From: a virus
Taxonomy: Duplodnaviria; Heunggongvirae; Uroviricota; Caudoviricetes
Reading direction: 5' to 3' (one strand)
DNA length: 44,866 nucleotides
Virus record (IMG/VR): IMGVR_UViG_2579778842_000011
Span: 1-44,866 of that record
Notes under the pieces: model-generated
Database searches by the model: none
What the model saw: the letters and a program-made list of their open reading frames with translations, nothing else
Told to the model about the DNA's origin: nothing
Position numbers and translations under genes: made by a program
In this document: piece by piece, positions 7,859 to 43,978 of the stretch
How positions within the stretch are numbered: the first letter of the stretch is position 1
Layout: each line of letters begins with the position of its first letter

Positions 7859-8299
<441 letters not shown>

Positions 8300-8350
8300 C
8301 TAAAATTTTTATTCATCGAATCGTTTGATTGATTAGTGAGCGGTTGAACG

Positions 8351-8405: not shown

Positions 8406-8642
8406 GGTACTGTTCCACGGGTGAAATAAAGGGAGTTTTCGGCACCCCGGTTTTTGATGTGCGTGTGAGATTTCAAAACAGGTGCAGTGCAGCCCACCAG
8501 CGCGGTCGCTACGCGACTATTAACACCCGCTAATCCCTTTCCCCGCCTCGATCTTTCCCTTCGTTATAAAGCGTTTTAGGCGCTCTCCTGAATGCGCAGA
8601 TCAGATAAATAATTTTACGCAAATTTAATGGAGGATAACCGG

Positions 8643-9203: not shown

Positions 9204-9220
9204 TTATAAATAATAGTGAG
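9204..9220 (+). promoter_or_regulatory. Recurrent 17-mer TTATAAATAATAGTGAG (copy 1), putative promoter -10/operator element
   Basis: Same motif recurs at 11159-11175 (minus), 12437-12453 and as a variant at 41018-41036, each 35-90 nt upstream of a gene start. Confidence 0.4.
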
Positions 9221-9246
9221 AAAGATGTTGAACGGGTCAACGTCTA

Positions 9247-9275
9247 CGGGGGAGAACATCCCCCGCTTAACTTTT
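9247..9275 (+). terminator. Hairpin, possible weak terminator/attenuator
   Basis: CGGGGGA-GAACA-TCCCCCG stem-loop followed by CTTAACTTTT. Confidence 0.3.
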
Positions 9276-9291
9276 AAGAGGATATAAAACT

Positions 9292-9576
9292 ATGGCTACT
9301 TTTATTACCTATGCTGTCACCATTACTATTCTGGCTGCTATCTCTGCTTATAAACTCGGAACCGAACCGAAAGAACGAGGCGAATTATTCTTAGGTGCGT
9401 TTGTTGCATTTGCTAGCCTTGCGTTAATTGTCGAAGGAATTTCTTATATTGTTGGCCTAGTTAGTATGACACTTTTTAACTTCCATCCAACTATTGCTAT
9501 GCATTTGATGCTGACCGTACTTTGGGTATATTGCTTAATCGAATTTTTAACGTTTGTTTTCAAACAGACTAAATAA
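9292..9576 (+). CDS. Small membrane protein (three predicted hydrophobic helices)
   Basis: 94 aa; AGAGGA RBS 9 nt upstream; three hydrophobic segments. Confidence 0.5.
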   Translation: MATFITYAVTITILAAISAYKLGTEPKERGELFLGAFVAFASLALIVEGISYIVGLVSMTLFNFHPTIAMHLMLTVLWVYCLIEFLTFVFKQTK

Positions 9577-9840
9577 TATTGTAATCTGCCTTTTCTCCTT
9601 ATGTGGTTTTAACAGGGAGCTTTCGAAAGAGAGTTCCCGATTAAAAGCCATAAAACACATTCAGTACAGTGTTTTCATAGTCAGTGATCTATACAACATA
9701 AAAACATAACAAGTATAGATTGAGTATTAATCCTCCCGCCTCGAAAGGGGCGGTTATTTTTCTGGCTTTACTGGATAATGTAGCATTATGTTCATTATAA
9801 ATCCTCATCTTTGTTGTGCAAACCTAACCTAAACTTACTA

Positions 9841-9865
9841 GGGACTCTTCGGAGTCCCTTTTTTT
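9841..9865. terminator. Bidirectional rho-independent terminator between convergent transcription units
   Basis: GGGACTC-TTCG-GAGTCCC followed by T7 on plus strand; overlaps the stop codon of the minus-strand 313 aa gene. Confidence 0.7.
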
Positions 9866-10922: not shown

Positions 10923-11105
10923 TTACCAGACCTCGGCGGTAATCTTTACTTTAATGTCATACTTCTTTAAGAGTTTGTGAAAGGTTGATTGATCAATACC
11001 TTCACCTTTAAACCATTCACCCATCACTACATCAGGTGTCAGTTCAAAATAACGCTTTGCCATTTCTAAAACGATTTCACGAGTGAACTTAACAGGTCGT
11101 GCCAT
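10923..11105 (-). CDS. Small DNA-binding protein with resolvase/Hin-type HTH-like motif
   Basis: 60 aa; AGGAGG RBS; RPVKFTRE...GIDQSTFHKLLKKYDIK pattern; paralogous to 14641..14865. Confidence 0.45.
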   Translation of the reverse strand: MARPVKFTREIVLEMAKRYFELTPDVVMGEWFKGEGIDQSTFHKLLKKYDIKVKITAEVW

Positions 11106-11158
11106 CTTGAATCCTCCTAAATCTGGATTAATGATTTCTTAAAAAAGAGCGTCAACCG

Positions 11159-11175
11159 CTCACTATTATTTATAT
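11159..11175 (-). promoter_or_regulatory. Recurrent 17-mer (copy 2, ATATAAATAATAGTGAG on minus strand) upstream of the 60-aa gene
   Basis: Followed by AGTGAGCGGTTGACG, which also occurs at 8335-8350 near the prophage junction. Confidence 0.4.
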
Positions 11176-11622
11176 GGGGATTGTATTTTATTTTTCAACC
11201 CCTCACATTTATCTCTTATATATGTATTTATAACAGAGATATGTTAAAATGTTATTCAGATGTTATCAGACGTGTTAAATGTGTTAAACCGCAGCACGAA
11301 TTGCTAAAGCGGAGAGCACGAATTAACCAAATTGATGTATATTCAATCAATTTAGAAAAAGGCATAGCACTTTTTGCTAAAGCGGTGAGCATTAATTGAG
11401 CTATGAATTGTAAAGATTTGTTACAAGATTTTCTCTCAGATCCAAATCTTCACAAACATATAACAATTTAACAGAAGGATAACAAATGAAAGGAAATCGG
11501 TAAATTTTCACTTTCAATACAAATATTATACCACATTTTTCTCGAATTGTCAATTATAGCACCGATCCTACACAGTGTCAACAAAGGATTTTCAAACCTA
11601 CACTAGCCCTACACTATGAAAA

Positions 11623-11808
11623 TTGCCCCTGAATTTTTGCCCCTGAACCAAAATCCCCTAGATTCCACATCCAATTTTTGCCCCTGAAACCCACTATTTT
11701 TGCCCCTGAAATTCTGGGAAACAGTGATTTTGCCCCTCATTTTTGCCCCTGAAATGCCAATAATTGCCCCTGAAAATCTAATTTTTGCCCCTGAAATTTG
11801 CCCCTGAA
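11623..11808 (+). repeat. Iteron-like array: 9 direct copies of TTGCCCCTGAA (8 exact, 1 variant)
   Basis: Copies at 11623, 11637, 11678, 11700, 11730 (variant TTGCCCCTCAT), 11743, 11764, 11785, 11798; all same orientation, irregular 13-41 bp spacing, within a 1.4 kb region lacking ORFs of 60 aa or more. Confidence 0.75.
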
Positions 11809-12436
11809 AAGGATTTGTGAGAAAAACTCTTTATAAAACATTAACTTAGTGAGTGGCAAAACGGGGAATCGGGCGTGCATAGATATTATATAACACATTC
11901 GCTACGCTCATGTGTAAAACCAAAAACAACAAATAACCAAAAAGATATTAGGAGGGCGTAGCCCGACTGCGCGAAGCGCTAACCAATTACTTCTAGTAAC
12001 ACTAATTTAAACTAGATGATACTAGATGGTCTTAGAAGGAATTAACTAGTTTGCTCGCTCGCTTCGCTCACTCTCAAACGTCTGCGACGCCACTGCGTGG
12101 CATCGAGAATCACTTCTGAAAGGATTTTCTTGAAAGGGATTTTAAACTAGTTACTAACTGATTCTAGAAAGATAGTAATAATCACTTTGAAGATAATAGT
12201 AGTTAACTGGTTACTAGATGATTCTAGATCACTTTAATGATCATGAAAGGTATTGGTATCCCTTCGGGATTGCAACCTTCGGTTGCTAAATTGCTTCCTG
12301 ATTATAATTTCTCCAAAAGAAAGATTCTTATATTCTAAAGATACTTCTTCGTTTTGATGATGATTTAATCAAAATCTATGAAGGAGGCGAAGCCGACTGA
12401 ATACCAATTCCTTTCAAATTAGACAAAAATTTCTCG

Positions 12437-12453
12437 TTATAAATAATAGTGAA
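12437..12453 (+). promoter_or_regulatory. Recurrent 17-mer (copy 3, TTATAAATAATAGTGAA) about 35 nt upstream of gene 12489
   Basis: Sequence identity to copies 1 and 2. Confidence 0.4.
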
Positions 12454-12488
12454 CTTACTTTGATTCACTTTTTTAGAGGATTTCCACT

Positions 12489-12941
12489 ATGATCAATACT
12501 AAAACTCCTTTCATTCTTCTGGGTCTGAACCATGATGATAATCTGGCTATGATGCATGTTTTCGCTAATCGTGGTTATAACATCATTCGTCATTCCGAAG
12601 ACTCCAATTTCTCAACTGCTTTCTATGCTCTTAAACGTAATGGTCGCCCTACGGTGATCGTAGACTGCTTTACTGATGAAGGTCGTGAACAATACAACAA
12701 CATTCCGGCAATTATTGTTCGTGATGACCTGCCGTTTGATGTTCGTGAATATGACGTTGATTTAGGCTCTTACTATGGGATCGCCGATCTTGACCAGATT
12801 ATGGCTGATTATGGTAAACAACCCGCTCAGGAAGCCCCAGAACGAGATGAACAAGACGAAGATGACGACGACTACACACCAATCTGTTTCTCTTCTCACG
12901 GTGGCTTCTACGGTTACGATGAAGGCTTAGATATGCTGTAA
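12489..12941 (+). CDS. Hypothetical acidic early protein
   Basis: 150 aa; AGAGGA RBS; C-terminal ERDEQDEDDDDY acidic run. Confidence 0.5.
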   Translation: MINTKTPFILLGLNHDDNLAMMHVFANRGYNIIRHSEDSNFSTAFYALKRNGRPTVIVDCFTDEGREQYNNIPAIIVRDDLPFDVREYDVDLGSYYGIADLDQIMADYGKQPAQEAPERDEQDEDDDDYTPICFSSHGGFYGYDEGLDML

Positions 12942-12963: not shown

Positions 12964-13005
12964 TTGTCAAGGGGTATTGACAAAAATTTCTGACTTTTTT
13001 ATGAT
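12964..13005 (+). promoter_or_regulatory. Candidate sigma70 promoter with overlapping inverted repeat (operator-like)
   Basis: TTGACA 12977-12982, 17 bp spacer, TATGAT 13000-13005; inverted repeat TTGTCAA(12964)/TTGACAA(12977) overlaps the -35. Confidence 0.45.
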
Positions 13006-14324: not shown

Positions 14325-14332
14325 TAATTTTT

Positions 14333-14356
14333 GCCCCTGAATTTCAGGGGCTTTTT
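14333..14356 (+). terminator. Rho-independent terminator built from the iteron motif
   Basis: GCCCCTGAA-T-TTCAGGGGC perfect inverted repeat followed by TTTTT. Confidence 0.75.
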
Positions 14357-14395: not shown

Positions 14396-14598
14396 TTCGA
14401 AAGAATCAATAGGTTAGAGATGAGCGCAGTTTTGCGCCGATTGATTCAAGTTTGAATTTCTCGAAAGAATCAACCACTTAGATAGATACGCTGAACTTTA
14501 AGCACATCCCCTCAGTTTTGAGGGCATCTATAGATCAGTCCAAATCTCTGGACTCATCGGAAGAATCAATGACTTATAGATGAGCGCAGTTTTGCGCG
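14396..14598. repeat. Three dispersed copies of an approximately 40-bp unit with embedded small hairpins
   Basis: Units start 14396, 14459, 14556 (TCGAAAGAATCAA...TTAGAGATGAGCGCAGTTTTGCGC); hairpins GCGCA-GTTTT-GCGC, CCCTCA-GTTT-TGAGGG, AGTCCA..TGGACT, ATTCAA-GT-TTGAAT. Confidence 0.6.
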
Positions 14599-14603
14599 GA
14601 TAT

Positions 14604-14640: not shown

Positions 14641-14865
14641 TCAAATTCCTGTTGCTTCTACCATTTCACCGTCAACCTGAACAAAGAATTTCAAATCAAC
14701 TTTATGGAGTGATTTGTAGAATTGAGCGATTGAAATACCGTGTTCACTCAATACTTGCTCTTTTTCGGCTTTACCTTTCGGTGCTTGATAGTACGCTTTT
14801 ACAATCGCTGCCAGTTGTTCACGATCAAAACGGCAAGGACGACCGCGAGTAGCTTTAGTAGTCAT
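14641..14865 (-). CDS. Small DNA-binding protein, paralog of 10923..11105
   Basis: Second ATG (14865) has GGAG at good spacing; TRGRPCRFDREQLAAIVKAYYQ and GISIAQFYKSLHKVDLK align with the 60-aa protein. Confidence 0.45.
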   Translation of the reverse strand: MTTKATRGRPCRFDREQLAAIVKAYYQAPKGKAEKEQVLSEHGISIAQFYKSLHKVDLKFFVQVDGEMVEATGI

Positions 14866-14899
14866 AGTCATTTCTCCAAATTAAAGTGAATGTTCACCT

Positions 14900-15502
14900 T
14901 TATTTAGAGGACTTACATTTTATCGGAAAAAGTTCTCCATCGTCAACCGACATAAAGAACTCTGCCTTAATCCCGTACTTCTTCAACCGTGAATAGTATG
15001 TACCCCGACTTATATCAACCTTGCGAAGCACTTCAAAGAACCCTTTAGGATCGTTGTAATAGTGGCTATAACGCACGTTAGCGAGTTCAACGAATAGTTC
15101 CCTTGTATCACCATAGCCTTTCTTGAAAGCCTCGTTACGATAGCGTGTAATTGCGTGATTCAATCTCTTCTGTTTCAACACTTCCCTGATCGGTGTCCAC
15201 TGCAACCGATAGATCGGACCGTCATCAATGCGATAATAACGCTTGATATCAAAATCAAACCAATCTCGGACTCTCCGAAACTCTGTATGTGATGTTCTAT
15301 GCTTCTTAAAGAAGTTGTGAACGTCTGTATAACCATTATCGCGGTAAAACTCTATTAAAATCTCTTTCGCTTCCTCACGACTAAAGCCAGATGTAGTGTA
15401 GTCGGTTTTTAAATGCTTATGCTTAACTGGCAAACGATATTCATGATCGGTACAAGACAAGGCTAATTCTAATTCATCTCTTTGTTGCTGATTAATTAGC
15501 AT
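14900..15502 (-). CDS. Hypothetical protein with C-terminal HTH-like motif shared with the two small paralogs
   Basis: 200 aa; AAAGGGGG RBS; C-terminal DISRGTYYSRLKKYGIK. Confidence 0.45.
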   Translation of the reverse strand: MLINQQQRDELELALSCTDHEYRLPVKHKHLKTDYTTSGFSREEAKEILIEFYRDNGYTDVHNFFKKHRTSHTEFRRVRDWFDFDIKRYYRIDDGPIYRLQWTPIREVLKQKRLNHAITRYRNEAFKKGYGDTRELFVELANVRYSHYYNDPKGFFEVLRKVDISRGTYYSRLKKYGIKAEFFMSVDDGELFPIKCKSSK

Positions 15503-15587
15503 ACAACCCCCTTTAATTAATACCCGTATTTATCAAAATATCAACAATTTAATAAATACCTTCATATTTCGTAATGAGGGTAATTAC

Positions 15588-38093: not shown

Positions 38094-38441
38094 ATGGCTA
38101 AAAATATTTTCACTGAATTTCCTACTTATCCGGTCGATCAGCTTTCCGGTATTTTTATTAATGGCATTAGCCCAGAATCAATGACTTATGATTTTGCGGC
38201 GAAGAGAGTTAAACATAAACAATATAAAGAATGTATCCGCGATCATGAAAAAGGGACCGTGTTTTGTGTCGCTACATTGGCTAAACGTCCTAAATATCGT
38301 TTTCGTGTAGGACAAGAAGTTGATGTGGTTAATCCTTATAGCTTTAACTGTCTGGGCGATGCACGCGCGGTGTGTGTAGGCACTGCTCCTTATTATATCA
38401 AGGGTATGCGCTTTATTGGTTATATCTTCGAAATGATCTAA
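38094..38441 (+). CDS. Hypothetical protein
   Basis: 115 aa ORF in the operon preceding the endolysin. Confidence 0.45.
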   Translation: MAKNIFTEFPTYPVDQLSGIFINGISPESMTYDFAAKRVKHKQYKECIRDHEKGTVFCVATLAKRPKYRFRVGQEVDVVNPYSFNCLGDARAVCVGTAPYYIKGMRFIGYIFEMI

Positions 38442-38835: not shown

Positions 38836-40326
38836 TTATATAGCAATGGTTTTAGTTGCATAGCTGAACTTGTCGGTTAGATAATAGCGGATTCTCTCAA
38901 GTGCATGTTTTACCGCATAATTTTTATGCTTGACTTTTCCGTTACGACCGAATATACACAGATGATCTATAAGATCCCAGACCGTTGCAATATCCTTAGA
39001 ACCATGTTTACGCAATGCACGACCGATACTCTGACGAACGATAGTTGATTCCTTCACTGGATGACCGAAAATAACATGGTGCAAATTCTTAATTGAAACA
39101 CCAGTAGAGAACACACCATAGGATGCAACACAAATGATCCCTGTTTCCCCTTCCGCTAATTTCTTAAATTCATCACGTTCTTCTGTCTTAACTCCACCGT
39201 CAATATAATAAACCTTGTCGTGTACCTTCTGTAACGCATCATACATAAGTTTTCCGTGCTTAGTATTGCGGAACATCAGGAATACGTTTTCGCCCTTCTT
39301 AGCGAGTTTTAGCGCCAAATTACAAGCAAACTTATTTCGTCGTGGGTTAGACGTAATATACTTGATCTCTTCCGCATATTCCCGCCCCTTAACCGCGCTA
39401 CATTCCTCATCGGTATAACGAAGGAAAAGGCAGTTAATTTTCAGTTTTGTCACTTGACCTTCTTCCATCAGGCGGTCAATACTCACGATCTTAGAAATAT
39501 CACCGAAAAGCCCGACGTACTGCATTAAATGGCACTTTGATTCTTTCGGGGAACCAGTCATACCGATTTTGAACTGGCAATGATTCATTCCGTTAATGAT
39601 ATTGGTAATATTTTTGGCACTAGCCTTATGTGATTCATCAACTATCAACATTCCATATTGTTTGAACCATTCAGGAGGCATCTTGCAAGCTGATTGCCAG
39701 GTACTAACCGTGATTAACCTGTCTCCCGGATGTTTCCCGCTACCACTCATCATTGTATGAATTGCTTCATAAGGGAATAGCCTATAATCGACAAAATCAT
39801 CCCTCATTTGAACCACCAGCGATGTAGTAGGGACAATGATTAGAACTTTTCCGGTGTAGTTCTCTAAGTACCAACGAGACAGCATACAAGCAATCAATGA
39901 CTTACCCGCACTGGTAGGAAGAACCAGCATTCTACGGCGATTATGAATACCCTGAAAGACTGCCTCCCTTTGATACCAGTAAGGATTGATTTTATTGGAA
40001 CCGGAATACACTTCTAGGGAATCAATCCATTCATTAATCGCGTCTTTGGTTACATCTTCCTTCTCAAGCAATCTGGGGTCAATCCAGACTGAATAGCCCA
40101 TATTTTTAACGAAGACACCCAACGTTTTTAATAGTCCAATTGGTAGGGTGTTTTCATGCGTAAACAGTCTTATTCGTCCATCCCAGCCAGAATACTTGTA
40201 ACGGGGGCTAAACCTAGCCCCTTCAACCTCAAACGAGAAATAATCTCTTAATTCCATTCCGATAGAAGGAGAGCAATCAACCTTAACGAAACTGTAATCT
40301 TGAAAATGAATTTTAATATCTTGCAT
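38836..40326 (-). CDS. SF2 DExH helicase, T4 UvsW-like
   Basis: ATG at 40326 overlapping upstream stop (TAATG); N-terminus MQDIKIHFQDYSFVKVDC and whole length resemble recalled T4 UvsW; motifs LPTSAGKSL, DESH, QSIGRALRKHG. Confidence 0.8.
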   Translation of the reverse strand: MQDIKIHFQDYSFVKVDCSPSIGMELRDYFSFEVEGARFSPRYKYSGWDGRIRLFTHENTLPIGLLKTLGVFVKNMGYSVWIDPRLLEKEDVTKDAINEWIDSLEVYSGSNKINPYWYQREAVFQGIHNRRRMLVLPTSAGKSLIACMLSRWYLENYTGKVLIIVPTTSLVVQMRDDFVDYRLFPYEAIHTMMSGSGKHPGDRLITVSTWQSACKMPPEWFKQYGMLIVDESHKASAKNITNIINGMNHCQFKIGMTGSPKESKCHLMQYVGLFGDISKIVSIDRLMEEGQVTKLKINCLFLRYTDEECSAVKGREYAEEIKYITSNPRRNKFACNLALKLAKKGENVFLMFRNTKHGKLMYDALQKVHDKVYYIDGGVKTEERDEFKKLAEGETGIICVASYGVFSTGVSIKNLHHVIFGHPVKESTIVRQSIGRALRKHGSKDIATVWDLIDHLCIFGRNGKVKHKNYAVKHALERIRYYLTDKFSYATKTIAI

Positions 40327-40895
40327 TAGTTCCACTCCACACTTGCAATATTCTTTATATTGTTTAGTGATTTATTGCAGTAGTGGAATGTTTCAGTTTT
40401 GCCGTATTCAATCCCGCCTATACCCACATCCAGTAATCTCTTTATTGCTCTTTCAGTGGCTAAAGCATGTTTCATTGATGGCATTTCACCAGCAAAGACA
40501 ATATCAAAGTTATGACCGGGATTGCGTACACCCAGATTAATGCGTCGCTTGATGATTGACTTTGTTACACCAAATTTACCAATATCCCCTGATTTCATTA
40601 CATAGAGATAAGGCACACCCGCTTTATATTGAAAGTAATCACTTTTGAGACATGCACAGCGTTTACCTTCATTAAGCAGGTTGGTAGCTGATTTGTCGGC
40701 TCTATTGCCGCATCGGGTACATGTAAGAGCAATTCTTGAATGAAGCCCTTTAAACTCACCCAGAAAGCCATGAAAGACTAATGGTAAGTCCTTATCTTTG
40801 ATGTGAGTCAGAATGCGTTGTTCTAATGCCGATGGAGTTACAGCACGGGAGGATTTAGGAGTAAAAACAATATCTTTAGCCATTACTGGAATCAT
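40326..40895 (-). CDS. Zinc-ribbon + T5orf172/GIY-YIG-like domain protein
   Basis: 189 aa; GAGG RBS; CTRCGN...CAC Cys cluster; YLYVMKSGDIGKFGVTK...R...E pattern. Confidence 0.5.
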   Translation of the reverse strand: MIPVMAKDIVFTPKSSRAVTPSALEQRILTHIKDKDLPLVFHGFLGEFKGLHSRIALTCTRCGNRADKSATNLLNEGKRCACLKSDYFQYKAGVPYLYVMKSGDIGKFGVTKSIIKRRINLGVRNPGHNFDIVFAGEMPSMKHALATERAIKRLLDVGIGGIEYGKTETFHYCNKSLNNIKNIASVEWN

Positions 40896-41017
40896 ATAGA
40901 CCTCACTTTTTTAACTTATAGGCATAACCTCAATATGGTTGGTTTGGGATTTAGGGTCGCGTATTATACACATTCAGATAGAGAATGCAATAGTAAGACA
41001 ATTTTCTCTAATAAATA

Positions 41018-41036
41018 GTAGTGAGCTTATTATTTT
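41018..41036 (+). promoter_or_regulatory. Variant copy of the recurrent 17-mer (TAATAAATAGTAGTGAGC) upstream of gene 41050
   Basis: Similarity to the copies at 9204, 11159 and 12437. Confidence 0.3.
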
Positions 41037-41049
41037 AGAGGAAACTACT

Positions 41050-42225
41050 ATGAAACTTGCTTACGCTGCCGAAATTCCTTTTGTTAAGAAAACTCGCGGT
41101 TTATCACCGGAAGAGTACCAACAACGAATCATCGCTAAACTGGAACCTGCTTTCGTATTTGGTGGATTTATCCTACCGTGGAAGGGTAATCACACTTACT
41201 TTCGAATCTACAATTTAGACACACAAGAATATAAGGACTACAAATTACGCAAACTGGAAGATACTAACGGGGGTGAGTTATTCCAGACTGAAAAGGCTGT
41301 ATGGTTGAAAATGGAATCTCGTTGTAATGAGAAGGGAAAGAAATTCCTCGGATGGCAAGGAGAATGGAAAGGGCGAAATAGAACGAAAGCCCGTGTTTTG
41401 TGCCCTGAACACAATCAAATCATGACGCCATCTCTATTACATGCTCTCAAAGATGATTTCGATTTTGATTGCAAAATCTGTATGGCTGAAAAATCCCAAC
41501 GGGTAAGAAGTGGCAAGACTTTTGATGAAGTTATTAAGGACAAAGAGACAATCATCAATGCACGTTGCGAGAGTACGCCTTACACCTTCAAAGGATTCAT
41601 CATAAACACCCCACACCTAAAGGATGTTAAATTTAAAACCTATTGCAAGACACATAACCACGAATGGGAATCTCATTTAAGATGTGCTGATTCTTTCACT
41701 TGTCCGCTTTGCATTAAAGACCAACTGGTGCAACTGTCTAACCGGACTTATCAGGGTAAGGCTAGTTTCTACATTCAATTATTAGATGACAAATTTATTA
41801 AATTTGGAATCACTACCCGGAAACCAGAAGAACGAATGAGAGAGCAAACCAGAAAGAGCAACTTCACTCACCGCTTAATCTTTACTCATGAGTTTGAGGA
41901 TGGTTGGAAAGCCGTTGATTTAGAGCATGAAGTAAAACAACGCTTCAAGACTCATGCAGCACCCTACAAAGATTTCAAGGATGGATGGTCGGAAACTCTG
42001 ACTATTGATGAGTTACCACACTTACAGCAACTGGTTTATGACTACCTAACCAATCAACCGGACGAGGCTAATATGTGGGTATCCCCGAAAGATGTATTTG
42101 ATGACGATACATTCAAGCTACATACTCACTTCTACGGCATCAATAAACCGGAATTTTTCTGTATTGATGACGACAGTCCTGATTTAATGGATGAATACTT
42201 TAATACGCTCTTAGACGCTGCCTAA
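41050..42225 (+). CDS. Paralogous protein with two Cys/His zinc-ribbon modules and C-terminal T5orf172/GIY-YIG-like domain
   Basis: ATG 41050 after AGAGGA (track ORF begins upstream without RBS); CPEHN...CKIC and CKTHNHEW...CPLC; FYIQLLDDKFIKFGITTRK. Confidence 0.45.
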   Translation: MKLAYAAEIPFVKKTRGLSPEEYQQRIIAKLEPAFVFGGFILPWKGNHTYFRIYNLDTQEYKDYKLRKLEDTNGGELFQTEKAVWLKMESRCNEKGKKFLGWQGEWKGRNRTKARVLCPEHNQIMTPSLLHALKDDFDFDCKICMAEKSQRVRSGKTFDEVIKDKETIINARCESTPYTFKGFIINTPHLKDVKFKTYCKTHNHEWESHLRCADSFTCPLCIKDQLVQLSNRTYQGKASFYIQLLDDKFIKFGITTRKPEERMREQTRKSNFTHRLIFTHEFEDGWKAVDLEHEVKQRFKTHAAPYKDFKDGWSETLTIDELPHLQQLVYDYLTNQPDEANMWVSPKDVFDDDTFKLHTHFYGINKPEFFCIDDDSPDLMDEYFNTLLDAA

Positions 42226-42298: not shown

Positions 42299-43978
42299 TT
42301 AAATTCCAAATTCCTGTAATGGACCTGGTATTTCCTCTTCTGGTTTCCAGTTCTTATCTGTCAGCATGTCTAAACATGGATGCAGAACAAGCCCGTTACT
42401 CTCCAGAATCTGCCTATCATTGATAGTTTTCAAATCGACAAAGATTTGTCCTTTCCTCGTTCCTCTTGAATTTTCTATTACAACTCTCTGGGTCTTTCCA
42501 TCGATGTATTCCAGTACAAACAAGTTTTTGTTTCTGTCAATCCTGCTACACCCGATCCGCTTTAGAGCTTGCTTAATCTTAAACCGGACCTTTAGTCGTT
42601 CCTCGTTGTAAACATCTTCTAAATCAAATTCTGCGAGCTTCTCCCAGCCTTGAGAGTCAACAGAATACATTTCCTCTTCTGCCATCTTGATCTGATTGTA
42701 GAGTGTTTCACGCTCGCTATTGAGGGTAGTAATCTGATCGGCTAGCTCCTTCGTTGCTCCTGTCATAGCAGAAAGGGCAATCAGGTTATCAATCTTGCGT
42801 GATATCTCATCAACCTGTACTTTTAAAGCCGGAACCGGATTAGCCTTGTCCTCAGCAATCCAGATTTTATCAGCCAGCAATTGCAATACAGCTTTCTCTA
42901 ATTGATCACCTCGAAAACTCCAGTTTGGATGCTCGCAATCAAGTCTACGTGAACGGGTCGCATCACATGTATAACGATACTGGTCAGAACGTTTGTTCGT
43001 TCCCTTCACTTTAACCATAGCGCAACCGCAATGATCACATTTCAATAGGCCAATACCACTAAGCAGGGGGATCGGTTTAACTTCTTCCTTGTCTCCAAAG
43101 TTCCATGCTCTAGCACCAATATTTTTCTTAAGGTGATAGAACGTAGGGTCATCAATAACACGAGGGTAATAATCCTTTAACTCATAGTTAACGCCATCTA
43201 CAGAGACCTCCTTGATACCAATCAAAGCGCGGGTATGAAACAACCTTTCAACCATTGCCCGTGACCATTTTGAATGCTTCTTGTTGCTAACCGCTGGTGG
43301 CGGTGTATAAGTCTCGTTAAGGTGATCCAGTATCTCGGCGGTTGAACGTCCATTCTTCCGTAATTCCACAATCTCCTGAACAACAGGGAAGTACACCGGA
43401 TGAGGCAGCACATAACCGGAAGTGGTATCAGTCCACCACATATTCTTTCCAACTTCCTCGATTGCCACTGCCGGATTCTGGGGATTTTCTTGATGCGACT
43501 TAATCTTAATCAGTGCGCTTGAGTTAGTACGATTGCGCTTAGTCTGACTTTCCTCATTACCACGGATGAATAGAAGGATGGAGAACATCAGGTCCATCGG
43601 ATTAGCGGTAACAGTATCCAGCGAGTAGATCTTGTTATCCATGCCAGTAACAATGGTTATTCCCCTACGGATGATTGAAAGGAATAACTCCTGCGCACTG
43701 ACAATATCGGCACGGGATAAGCGGTCCAAGTTTTCAATGAATAGCCAGCTACCAACAGGAACGGATCTACCAATTGCATCAAGGAAACGAGATAGCGCCC
43801 CTGTTTTAGAGTTAGCACCTTTAAACGCAGATACACCCAGATCCTGATAATCATTTACCAGTTCAAGGTCATACTTTGCCGCAATCTCTCTCGCCATCCT
43901 GATTTGTCGTTCATAACTCGAACCATCACTCTGACGCATAGACGAGAAGCGAATATACGAATACAGTTTAGTTTTCAT
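42299..43978 (-). CDS. Large serine recombinase (phage integrase of the serine family)
   Basis: ATG at 43978 (track start 43993 is TTG); N-terminal YSYIRFSSMRQSDGSSYERQ resolvase catalytic motif, ENLDRLSR, Cys-rich zinc ribbon CDHCGC...CDATRSRRLDCEH, coiled coil. Confidence 0.85.
   Translation of the reverse strand: MKTKLYSYIRFSSMRQSDGSSYERQIRMAREIAAKYDLELVNDYQDLGVSAFKGANSKTGALSRFLDAIGRSVPVGSWLFIENLDRLSRADIVSAQELFLSIIRRGITIVTGMDNKIYSLDTVTANPMDLMFSILLFIRGNEESQTKRNRTNSSALIKIKSHQENPQNPAVAIEEVGKNMWWTDTTSGYVLPHPVYFPVVQEIVELRKNGRSTAEILDHLNETYTPPPAVSNKKHSKWSRAMVERLFHTRALIGIKEVSVDGVNYELKDYYPRVIDDPTFYHLKKNIGARAWNFGDKEEVKPIPLLSGIGLLKCDHCGCAMVKVKGTNKRSDQYRYTCDATRSRRLDCEHPNWSFRGDQLEKAVLQLLADKIWIAEDKANPVPALKVQVDEISRKIDNLIALSAMTGATKELADQITTLNSERETLYNQIKMAEEEMYSVDSQGWEKLAEFDLEDVYNEERLKVRFKIKQALKRIGCSRIDRNKNLFVLEYIDGKTQRVVIENSRGTRKGQIFVDLKTINDRQILESNGLVLHPCLDMLTDKNWKPEEEIPGPLQEFGI

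What the first reader, a model, noticed from the sequence alone, without database searches (positions are those of the whole stretch)
9204..9220. Recurrent 17-mer TTATAAATAATAGTGAG upstream of four early or accessory genes
Near-identical copies at 9204-9220 (plus), 11159-11175 (minus) and 12437-12453 (plus), and a variant at 41018-41036, each 35-90 nt upstream of a start codon. Two copies continue into a shared AGTGAGCGGTTGA(A)CG segment, which also occurs at 8335-8350 about 55 bp from the prophage-host junction. The TATAAAT core fits a -10 element and the conserved AATAGTGAG tail fits an operator for a phage regulator, so this may define a co-regulated regulon including the T5orf172 paralog next to the integrase.
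Basis: seen in the sequence. Interest (0 to 1): 0.5.

Follow-up and report, generated by a model that had tools for sequence, protein, structure and literature searches.

The report
Shared promoter-region box of a prophage
The repeated 17-mer is real: it is one version of a 12-base box (TAAATA-N-TAGTG) that sits in front of at least five short gene units of an unstudied E. coli prophage, is kept letter-for-letter in Salmonella and Proteus relatives, and most likely marks co-regulated transcription starts at the points where accessory genes get swapped.

Summary
There are four copies within 3 mismatches against 0.2 expected. All lie on the coding strand, 24-71 nt before a start codon. The fourth copy is at 41009-41025, not 41018-41036.

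The interpretation needs three corrections.
- **The core is not special to these genes.** TAAATA is the commonest hexamer in the prophage's upstream regions (19 of 26, against about 2.5 in shuffles). It fits a sigma-70 -10 poorly and has no fixed -35.
- **The distinguishing part is the tail.** The real unit is TAAATA-N-TAGTG. It has at least two more members: 14893-14909(-), before a 76-aa HTH gene, and 9567-9583(+). The unit is invariant in Escherichia, Salmonella and Proteus prophages while its flanks and downstream genes change, with about ten or more different cargo genes.
- **The tail is only partly operator-like.** It forms a true dyad at one site only. Elsewhere it pairs, as a hairpin arm, with bases next to the start codon.

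My best reading is a promoter-proximal control cassette for an early/accessory gene class, probably read by one of three paralogous phage HTH proteins. It also serves as a gene-swapping junction. The exact transcription start is unresolved: the box could be the -10-like element or +1..+12. Only TSS mapping can settle that. Moderately interesting; a new variant of a known kind.

The parts
9204..9220 (+). c1: TTATAAATAATAGTGAG. It lies 6 nt after the TerS stop codon and 71 nt before the 94-aa membrane ORF (9292-9576).
   Evidence: In relatives the TAAATA is kept but the tail varies (TAAATAAATGTATG; CTAAATACATATGTGA), and the downstream cargo is replaced by two other small membrane ORFs.
11159..11175 (-). 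c2: ATATAAATAATAGTGAG, 53 nt before the 60-aa HTH-like gene (10923-11105, minus strand), which is followed by the 313-aa gene.
   Evidence: An exact 12-mer is also found at the orthologous site in Salmonella L251 and L252.
12437..12453 (+). c3: TTATAAATAATAGTGAA, 35 nt before the 150-aa gene (12489-12941).
   Evidence: TAAATA(A/C)TAGTG is invariant in E. coli, Salmonella (L246, L251, L252) and Proteus (L250) orthologues.
41009..41025 (+). c4: TAATAAATAGTAGTGAG, 24 nt before the CapR+MUG113 (GIY-YIG clan) gene (41050-42225), next to the serine integrase.
   Evidence: The same box and 5'UTR precede at least four different cargo genes in relatives.
14893..14909 (-). c5: CTCTAAATAAAGGTGAA, a degenerate copy in this window. 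It overlaps the stop codon of the 200-aa gene and lies upstream of the 76-aa HTH gene (14641-14871, minus strand).
   Evidence: It is an exact TAAATAATAGTG in Salmonella L246, Logan contig L247 and Proteus L250. It forms the 5' arm of a conserved hairpin or dyad. A sigma-70-type TTGACG-18-TAAAAT promoter lies just upstream.
9567..9583 (+). c6: GACTAAATAATATTGTA, at the 3' end of the 94-aa cargo gene. It is followed by about 280 nt of conserved non-coding sequence that ends in two terminators.
   Evidence: 1 mismatch here. It is an exact TAAATAATAGTG in L002-L004, L013-L015 and L251, where a different cargo gene ends in it. It is the right-hand boundary of the swapped cassette.
11217..11233 (-). 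Tandem upstream TATAAATA (TTATAAATACATATATA). It is followed by TAAATGTGAGGGGTTGA, a diverged direct repeat of c2.
   Evidence: A similar tandem TATAAATACTATATG occurs in L251 and L252.
8334..8350 (+). Tail-only remnant TAGTGAGCGGTTGAACG, with no TAAATA, about 50-60 bp inside attL.
   Evidence: I17.
11141..11161 (-). Leader hairpin plus U-run directly after c2 (GAGCGGTTGACGCTC TTTTTT).
   Evidence: The stem and T-run are kept, with different loops, in Salmonella and Proteus. It may also terminate the transcript from the consensus promoters at 11525-11581.
9227..9265 (+). c1 leader hairpins: GTTGAACGGGTCAAC, and CGGGGGAGAACATCCCCCG followed by a T-rich tail.
   Evidence: z = -3.8.
12446..12490 (+). 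c3 leader pairings: ATAGTG (12446-12451) with CACTAT (12485-12490, which includes the AT of the ATG), and AGTGAA (12448-12453) with TTCACT (12464-12469) followed by a T-run.
   Evidence: The energy signal is weak (z = -1.3).
41015..41051 (+). c4 fold-back: ATAGTAGT (41015-41022) pairs with ACTACTAT (41044-41051), whose last two bases are the AT of the ATG. The Shine-Dalgarno sequence sits in the loop.
   Evidence: -9.7 kcal/mol, z = -3.35. The stem is 9 bp in L004 and 12 bp in L003 (-14.9 kcal/mol, z = -5.7).
10923..11105 (-). 60-aa HTH-like protein, a candidate regulator expressed from c2.
   Evidence: It is a paralogue of the 76-aa protein (BLASTP E = 5e-7). It matches domain 1 of the 200-aa family (hhalign probability 80%).
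14641..14871 (-). 76-aa HTH-like protein, a candidate regulator expressed from c5.
14900..15502 (-). 200-aa protein with two tandem three-helix plus beta-hairpin domains. It is a candidate reader of the asymmetric 12-mer or of the TAAATA boxes.
15553..15558 (+). Example of the general TAAATA box without the TAGTG tail, 29 nt before TerL. The box is followed by CCTTCAT, which pairs with the Shine-Dalgarno sequence ATGAGGG. About 15 further boxes exist, for example at 8606, 13408, 15532(-), 17524, 21755, 23334, 28135, 36861, 38060 and 44329(-).

Best explanation
**What it is.** The 17-mer is this window's version of a 12-bp box, TAAATA-N-TAGTG. The box heads a class of at least five or six short transcription units in an uncharacterised ~37-kb temperate phage. 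The phage is integrated in ycdX by a serine recombinase.

**How it most likely works.** It is a promoter-proximal control cassette.
- Transcription most likely starts within a few nucleotides of the box. There are two possible registers. In register B, a weak sigma-70-type -10 hexamer (nAnAAT) 7-10 bp upstream puts the box at about +1..+12. In register A, TAAATA itself acts as a -35-independent, T4-late-like -10 element.
- The TAGTG(A/T) half separates this class from about 15 other TAAATA boxes in the phage.
- As DNA, the tail is the likely recognition site (a half-operator, and a full dyad at c5) for one of three paralogous phage HTH proteins. Two of these are themselves expressed from such boxes.
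- As RNA, the tail forms the 5' arm of leader hairpins that pair with the bases next to the start codon.
- Because the same cassette precedes interchangeable cargo genes, it is also the junction at which accessory genes are exchanged.

**Shown.** Non-randomness; orientation and position; conservation across genera and across non-orthologous genes; the genome-wide TAAATA box; the complementarities; the paralogy of the HTH proteins.

**Inferred.** That the box is a promoter or operator; which protein reads it; where the transcription start lies.
For: 1. **Non-random.** 4 copies against 0.2 expected. The 12-mer gives 5 hits against 0.97 expected.
2. **Position.** Every copy lies on the coding strand, 24-71 nt before an ATG with a strong Shine-Dalgarno sequence.
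3. **Conservation.** TAAATA(A/C/G)TAGTG is kept exactly at the orthologous c2, c3 and c5 sites in Salmonella (L246, L251, L252), Proteus (L250) and Logan contig L247. This holds although TerL identity is 59-82% (L246-L249), identity of the 200-aa protein is 49-67% (L250-L252), and the flanks differ.
4. **Cargo.** The box precedes about 10 or more non-homologous downstream genes.
5. **Context.**
   - c2, c3 and c4 have no upstream gene on the same strand, so a local transcription start is needed.
   - c2 and c3 are divergent and flank the iteron/origin region.
   - The accessory units fit the pattern of box, then gene, then terminator.
6. **Register B.**
   - An A2/T6 hexamer matching at least 4 of 6 positions lies 7-10 bp upstream in 21 of 32 contexts; shuffles give a mean of 7.7 and a maximum of 15.
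   - c5 has TTGAC(G/A)-18-TAAAAT.
7. **Register A.**
   - TAAATA occurs upstream of 19 of 26 genes; shuffles give 2.5.
   - The enrichment is lineage-specific.
   - The box is retained just after the capsid terminator in four diverged relatives.
8. **Hairpins.**
   - c4: z = -3.35 to -5.7.
   - c5: 93% of cells paired, against 35-47% when the partners are slid.
9. **Candidate readers.** The three HTH paralogues lie next to c2 and c5.
Against: - There are no transcription-start data.
- Neither register gives a good sigma-70 promoter. The -35 elements are poor except at c5 and partly at c3. TAAATA lacks the T at -7.
- No sigma-like or gp55-like protein was detected.
- Hairpin-plus-U-run elements lie between the box and the gene at c1-c3. 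They would terminate box-initiated transcripts if they are efficient.
- Covariation in the hairpins is minimal: one compensatory pair, and 152 of 500 shuffles do as well.
- The c1 tail is not conserved in relatives.
- The many c3 and c4 variants are not phylogenetically independent, which inflates the counts.
Confidence: 0.55

Rival explanations
1. A purely T4-late-type promoter code. TAAATA (consensus t-n-A/C-TAAATA-A/C) would be a single-element, -35-independent promoter read by host RNA polymerase carrying an unidentified phage factor. It would be used for nearly all phage genes. TAGTG would merely be the start-site or discriminator variant of the early/accessory subclass.
For: - TAAATA is the top hexamer upstream of genes, in 19 of 26 regions, with strong sense-strand bias (20 sense against 3 antisense).
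- The enrichment is shared by relatives down to about 51-54% TerL identity. It is absent from host DNA and from more distant relatives.
- No -35 is present.
- The box is retained 4-14 nt after the capsid terminator in four diverged relatives.
- The sequence equals the T4 late consensus TATAAATA (quoted in PMC3606486).
Against: - No gp55, gp33 or gp45 homologue and no other sigma-like protein was found.
- The hairpins include the TAAATA itself (c5) or the ATAGTAG stretch (c4). A transcript starting downstream of the box would not contain these bases.
- The -10-like hexamers upstream are enriched.
Confidence: 0.22
2. An RNA-level element only. The box would be transcribed from upstream promoters and would act in the mRNA. 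UAAAUAAUAGUG would be an AU-rich single-strand platform plus a hairpin arm that serves as a ribosome standby site, a translational operator, an RNase processing site or a stabiliser. It would have no role in initiating transcription.
For: - The box pairs with start-codon-proximal bases (c3, c4; also L003, L004, Proteus c3) or forms a complete hairpin (c5).
- c1, c5 and c6 lie directly after co-oriented genes.
- General TAAATA boxes are followed by anti-Shine-Dalgarno arms, as before TerL and the gene at 38094.
- ACTATG start contexts accompany 4 of 5 box genes, against 2 of 31 others (Fisher p = 0.001, or 0.013 if c5 is not counted).
Against: - c2, c3 and c4 have no co-oriented gene upstream.
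- Several general boxes sit immediately downstream of strong intrinsic terminators.
- Exact conservation of a 12-mer is more typical of a protein-DNA or protein-RNA site than of a standby platform.
- Some leaders show no significant fold: L247 z = +0.3, c2 z = -1.3, c3 z = -1.3.
Confidence: 0.15
3. Mainly a recombination junction. The box would be a short conserved sequence retained because homologous recombination between copies shuffles accessory-gene cassettes, as with T4 PeSLs. Any regulatory role would be secondary.
For: - Alternative cargo genes are bounded on the left by c1 and on the right by c6.
- The c4 cassette precedes at least four different genes, including a truncated remnant.
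- Composite promoter/terminator PeSLs do this in T4-like phages (PMC4122927; PMC2839356).
Against: - c2, c3 and c5 precede core genes that are conserved in all relatives and are not swapped.
- 12 bp is short for homologous recombination.
- Strict orientation, and a fixed position relative to the Shine-Dalgarno sequence and ATG, point to an expression function.
Confidence: 0.06
4. A T7-like single-subunit RNA polymerase promoter on the opposite strand. The reverse complement CTCACTATTATTTATA contains the T7 -8..-1 core CTCACTAT.
For: Sequence resemblance only. On the plus strand, c2 reads ACCGCTCACTAT, against ACGACTCACTAT in T7 (the T7 consensus is from memory).
Against: - In every case this orientation would fire away from the adjacent gene and into the upstream gene.
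- No RNA polymerase gene is present in the prophage.
- The bases at -17..-9 are not shared among copies.
Confidence: 0.01

Closest known systems
T4-type late promoters (TATAAATA, gp55-dependent)
   Same: - A single AT-rich box, TATAAATA, with (C/A)TAAATA variants and no -35.
- It occurs 20-80 nt before most genes, on the sense strand.
- c1-c3 carry an exact TATAAATA (consensus as quoted in PMC3606486).
   Different: - This is a ~37-kb temperate siphovirus-like prophage with no gp55, gp33 or gp45 homologue.
- The subclass studied here has an additional invariant TAGTG.
- The position of the transcription start is unknown.
PeSL / PmSL composite promoter-terminator cassettes of T4-like phages (Arbiol 2010, PMC2839356; Comeau 2014, PMC4122927)
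   Same: A short conserved promoter-plus-stem-loop module is repeated in front of small accessory ORFs. It coincides with insertion, deletion and replacement boundaries between close relatives.
   Different: - PeSL promoters are near-consensus sigma-70 promoters (TTGACA-N17-TATAAT). This box is not.
- Here the stem-loop lies downstream of the box and often involves the box itself.
- The host is a temperate phage, not a T4-like one.
Promoter-overlapping operators of temperate-phage repressors (lambda OL/OR type)
   Same: - A repeated short site sits at divergent early promoters (c2 and c3) that flank a central control/origin region.
- It also sits at further units.
- Small HTH genes lie directly downstream.
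   Different: - The site is asymmetric. Dyad symmetry is seen only at c5 (AATAGTGA-N4-TCACTAAT in L246).
- There is one site per promoter, not an array.
- No CI- or Cro-family protein is recognisable.
Fold-back inhibition of read-through transcripts in IS10/IS50 (from memory: Davis, Simons and Kleckner 1985)
   Same: Bases at or just upstream of the presumed native transcription start are complementary to the start-codon region. Only longer, externally initiated transcripts would sequester the AUG (c4, L003, L004, c3).
   Different: - The resemblance is untested here.
- It applies only if the transcription start lies inside the box (register A).

Membership tests
Sigma-70 promoter | A -10 hexamer with A at position 2 and T at position 6 (TATAAT-like) | tested here: inconclusive
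   - TATAAA and TAAATA both lack the T at -7. The first two bases also vary among copies (AA, GA, CT).
- AATANT inside the box fits in the tail class, but not in the general boxes or in the c1 variants.
- An upstream nAnAAT hexamer 7-10 bp away is enriched.
Sigma-70 promoter | A -35 TTGACA-like hexamer at 16-18 bp, or an extended -10 TGn | tested here: not met
   - No conserved -35 column appears in the alignment of copies.
- Only c3 (TAGACA-16-AATAAT) and c5 (TTGACG-18-TAAAAT) score.
- No TGn is present.
- By contrast, true consensus promoters exist nearby, at 11525-11581(-) and 12977-13005(+).
T4-type late promoter | A TATAAATA-like box on the sense strand without a -35 | tested here: met
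T4-type late promoter | A phage-encoded gp55-type sigma (plus gp33 and gp45) | tested here: not met
   - No Pfam or PHROG hit was found for any early protein.
- The PGAP annotation of the whole prophage lists none.
- An unrecognisably diverged factor cannot be excluded.
T4-type late promoter | A transcription start 6-7 nt downstream of the box | not testable with these tools
   This needs 5'-end mapping.
Dimeric-repressor operator | Dyad symmetry at a fixed spacing | tested here: not met
   - The feature is met only at c5: GTGA-N4-TCAC in the window, L008 and L246.
- c1-c4 have a single half-site. Their inverted partners, where present, lie at variable distances of about 11-12 nt (c3) and 19 nt (L003 c4).
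PeSL-like shuffling cassette | A repeated promoter-plus-stem-loop module at the boundaries of variable ORFs | tested here: met
   - c1 and c6 bound alternative membrane-protein cargos.
- c4 precedes at least four different cargos.
- Stem-loops follow c1, c2 and c3.
PeSL-like shuffling cassette | A near-consensus sigma-70 early promoter in the module; a T4-like phage as host | tested here: not met
T7-like ssRNAP promoter (opposite strand) | A cognate single-subunit RNA polymerase gene, and a promoter oriented towards genes | tested here: not met
Rfam RNA families | A match to any curated RNA family | tested here: not met
   The only hit in the window is a host tRNA.

The most novel reading that the evidence does not exclude
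This prophage family (Escherichia, Salmonella, Proteus, Buttiauxella) may run most of its genes from a -35-less TAAATA promoter code, like T4 late promoters but without gp55. The TAGTG subclass would add a second layer. A half-operator for the single-domain paralogues would be one part. Fold-back hairpins would be the other, allowing translation only of transcripts that start at the box. A corollary: these boxes could also be fired by the late machinery of a superinfecting T-even phage, which would switch on the prophage's accessory or defence cargo.
Probability: 0.15. Interest if true: 0.7.

Novelty: new variant of a known kind. Interest (0 to 1): 0.42.

Why it matters
**What the box offers now.**
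- It is a compact, testable handle on the gene-expression programme of a widespread prophage family. The family is present in about 1% of complete E. coli genomes and also in Salmonella and Proteus.
- The family is entirely uncharacterised. It has no recognisable repressor, sigma factor or replication proteins.
- The box marks where accessory genes are plugged in. These include membrane proteins, GIY-YIG/CapR nucleases and other cargo. It can therefore be used to find cargo genes and cassette boundaries in related prophages.

**What follows if TAAATA is a real promoter element.** It would then be read without a gp55-type sigma. That would be a new solution for -35-independent promoter recognition in a temperate phage.

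**What follows if the box is an ordinary leader or operator at +1.** It would be routine phage regulation.

Tried and rejected
- **IMG/VR scan with the 15-mer TATAAATAATAGTGA.** More than 100 single hits in unrelated AT-rich contigs. These are chance matches and uninformative.
- **INPHARED phages.** No DNA match to the early region. No protein match to the 200-aa protein. The best TerL hit is 43% identical (phage DCP80).
- **GTDB scan with a TerL profile.** Most hits were distant. The Enterobacterales hits with TerL identity up to 54% lack the 12-mer. They served as negative controls for the TAAATA enrichment, except L166 and L167, which share it.
- **Rfam.** Nothing found in the prophage.
- **Foldseek against the PDB for the 200-aa model.** No hit. 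The PDB sequence profile search also gave nothing.
- **Literature.** Searches for 'ycdX prophage' and for the motif string returned only irrelevant papers. The phage P1 genome paper, wanted for comparison with Lpa late promoters, is not held.
- **Covariation test on the c5 hairpin.** Pairing is conserved, but with only four variants the covariation is not significant.
- **T7-like promoter reading.** Rejected on orientation and on the absence of a polymerase gene.
- **'The TAA-rich box is just stop codons'.** Rejected: the upstream stop codon lies inside the box at only 3 of 21 sites.

Full report
**Setting.**
- The window is E. coli chromosome. A ~36.8-kb prophage is inserted in ycdX. attL lies near 8280, and attR lies just beyond the window end.
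- The prophage carries a large serine recombinase at 42299-43978(-). Its structural genes are siphovirus-like.
- Its early region is very small: TerS, a 94-aa membrane ORF, a 313-aa protein, a 60-aa protein, an iteron-rich 1.3-kb non-coding stretch, then 150-aa, 110-aa, Rha, 76-aa and 200-aa genes.
- Related prophages occur in 64 of 5426 complete E. coli genomes.
- No sequenced phage isolate is related at the DNA level. None encodes the 200-aa protein.

**Observation.**
- The 17-mer occurs at 9204(+), 11175(-), 12437(+) and, with two changes, at 41009(+). That is 4 matches against 0.2 expected.
- All copies are co-oriented with the next gene. They lie 71, 53, 35 and 24 nt before an ATG that has a strong Shine-Dalgarno sequence.
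- The longer AGTGAGCGGTTGA is exact only at c2 and at 8335. The 8335 copy is a tail-only remnant without TAAATA.

**What the unit really is.**
- Anchored comparison of copies and relatives shows an invariant core, TAAATA-N-TAGTG, with N = A, C or G. The two bases before TAAATA vary (TA, AA, GA, CT).
- There are two more members.
  - c5 at 14893-14909(-) overlaps the stop codon of the 200-aa gene and precedes the 76-aa gene. It is degenerate in this window (TAAATAAAGGTG). It is exact in Salmonella L246, contig L247 and Proteus L250.
  - c6 at 9567-9583 has one mismatch here and is exact in many relatives.
- The 12-mer is conserved at c2, c3 and c5 across Escherichia, Salmonella and Proteus. This holds although TerL identity is 59-82% in L246-L249, identity of the 200-aa protein is only 49-67% in L250-L252, and the flanking sequence differs.
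- The box precedes about ten or more unrelated downstream genes.
- Relatives with TerL identity of 54% or less lack the 12-mer.

**The core is a genome-wide box.**
- TAAATA is the most frequent hexamer in the prophage's upstream non-coding regions.
  - It occurs 20 times in 2220 nt.
  - 19 of 26 regions carry it on the sense strand; shuffles give a mean of 2.5 and a maximum of 9.
  - Only 3 copies lie on the antisense strand.
- Its consensus is t-n-(A/C)-TAAATA-(A/C), with no -35.
- The enrichment is shared by relatives down to about 51-54% TerL identity. It is absent from host DNA and from more distant relatives.
They are a subclass defined by the TAGTG tail.
- The phage also has textbook sigma-70 promoters elsewhere.
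  - Two tandem TTGACA-17-TATAAT promoters lie at 11525-11581(-).
  - TTGACA-17-TATGAT lies at 12977(+).
  - The box class is thus a distinct class.

**Where does transcription start?** Two registers fit, and I cannot decide between them.
- **Register A.** TAAATA is a T4-late-like, -35-independent element, with the start near the G of TAGTG.
  - In favour: the box is ubiquitous.
  - In favour: it is retained just downstream of the capsid terminator in four diverged relatives.
  - In favour: it is identical to the T4 late consensus (PMC3606486).
  - Against: no gp55-like factor was found.
- **Register B.** A -10-like hexamer with A at position 2 and T at position 6 lies 7-10 bp upstream. Examples are TACAAT at c2, AAAAAT at c3, GACAAT/GATAAT/AATAAT at c4 and TAAAAT at c5.
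  - It is present in 21 of 32 non-redundant contexts; shuffles give a mean of 7.7 and a maximum of 15. The contexts are phylogenetically related.
  - At c5 it comes with a good -35: TTGACG-18 in the window and TTGACA-18 in Salmonella.
  - This register puts the 12-mer at about +1..+12, as an operator or leader.

**The tail.**
- At c5 the tail is one arm of a dyad or hairpin.
  - L246 reads AATAGTGA-TTAA-TCACTAAT.
  - L008 reads AATATTGA-GAAA-TCACTATT.
  - The window reads AAAGGTGA-ACAT-TCACTTTA.
  - 93% of cells are paired, against 35-47% when the partners are slid.
  - There is only one compensatory pair among four variants.
- At c3 and c4 the tail is complementary to the bases that abut the AUG.
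  - The pairing is 6 bp at c3 and 8 bp at c4.
  - It is 9 bp in L004.
  - It is 12 bp in L003 (-14.9 kcal/mol, z = -5.7).
- ACTATG start contexts accompany 4 of 5 box genes, against 2 of 31 other genes.
- Hairpins followed by T-runs lie between the box and the Shine-Dalgarno sequence at c1, c2 and c3. The c2 hairpin is conserved in Salmonella and Proteus.
- These features fit three possibilities:
  - leader structures in register B;
  - fold-back control of read-through transcripts in register A;
  - an RNA-only function.

**Candidate readers.**
- The 60-aa and 76-aa proteins are paralogues (E = 5e-7). Each matches domain 1 of the 200-aa family (hhalign probability about 80%).
- The 200-aa model (pLDDT 74) has two tandem three-helix plus beta-hairpin domains.
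- A tandem-HTH protein would suit an asymmetric 12-bp site. The single-domain paralogues would suit the c5 dyad. This is inference.

**Cassette exchange.**
- The 94-aa cargo between c1 and c6 is replaced by two other small membrane ORFs in L002-L004 and in several IMG/VR relatives (L013-L016). The right-hand boundary is c6.
- The c4 box and leader are conserved ahead of at least four different genes, and ahead of a truncated remnant.
- This resembles the PeSL composite promoter/terminator modules of T4-like phages (PMC4122927).

**Verdict.**
- The repeat is real and functional by comparative criteria.
- It is best explained as a promoter-proximal control cassette of an early/accessory gene class. 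It is embedded in a phage-wide TAAATA box system.
It is wrong about what is specific, about the size of the class, and probably about the -10 assignment.
- The mechanism, meaning the transcription start, the factor, and whether it activates or represses, remains to be determined experimentally.

Noticed in passing
window 8606-44329 (about 21 sites, e.g. 15553, 21755, 28135, 36861, 38060): TAAATA is the commonest hexamer in the prophage's upstream non-coding regions. It occurs on the sense strand in 19 of 26 regions, against about 2.5 in shuffles. The enrichment is lineage-specific.
   Followed up: yes
window 11525-11581 (-): Two tandem perfect sigma-70 promoters (TTGACA-17-TATAAT, each with TGn). 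They read into about 370 nt without an ORF, ending at the c2 hairpin and T-run (11141-11161). This could be a non-coding RNA for immunity or replication priming, in a phage with no recognisable repressor.
   Followed up: partly
window 11172-11198 (-): A sigma-32-type promoter match, TTGAAA-N13-CCCCATAT, overlaps c2 (0.01 expected by chance). It is conserved in the E. coli relatives. It would put a heat-shock-dependent start at the same place.
   Followed up: partly
window 11620-11810 and 14327-14349: About 9-10 iterons, (A)TTTTTGCCCCTGAA(A), lie between c2 and c3. This is probably the origin. One more copy forms the terminator hairpin after the Rha gene.
   Followed up: no
window 12383-12405 and 11951-11975: A repeated AAGGAG-[short hairpin]-GACTGAA element lies upstream of c3. 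Relatives show compensatory stem changes: GGC-GAA-GCC, GGGC-TTTA-GCCC and GTGC-GATA-GCAC.
   Followed up: no
window 14397-14601: Three TCGAAAGAATCAA-type repeats, including a 45-nt pair at 87% identity, lie between the Rha gene and the 76-aa gene. Their function is unknown.
   Followed up: no
window 17549-38450 (late gene starts): The late genes share a stereotyped ribosome-binding context, AAGGGGTAAT-N2-3-ATG. The box-class genes instead use TTTTAGAGGA-N5-8-ACTATG.
   Followed up: partly
window 15553-15587 and 38060-38093: Before TerL and before the gene at 38094, TAAATA is followed by CC(T/C)TCAT. This pairs with the Shine-Dalgarno sequence ATG(A/G)GGG, so the ribosome-binding site is sequestered in a hairpin.
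   Followed up: no
window 9582-9863 (+): About 280 nt of conserved non-coding sequence follow box c6. The stretch contains a hairpin and two intrinsic terminators (9736-9753 and 9840-9859). It may be a small RNA or a 3'UTR.
   Followed up: no
window 38836-42225: An accessory module lies next to the integrase. It comprises a UvsW-like helicase (UvsW_N+ResIII+Helicase_C), a CapR-domain protein and a CapR+MUG113 (GIY-YIG clan) protein. Relatives carry unrelated genes here instead. It looks like a defence or anti-defence module.
   Followed up: partly
window 9204-9220 etc.: The 17-mer contains TAA-TAG-TGA, all three stop codons in one reading frame, plus a TAA in a second frame. The c4 copy has TAG-TAG-TGA. 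This may insulate translation between units.
   Followed up: no
L002, L003 against the window: Relatives integrate at different sites, either hicB or ycdX, using closely related serine recombinases.
   Followed up: no
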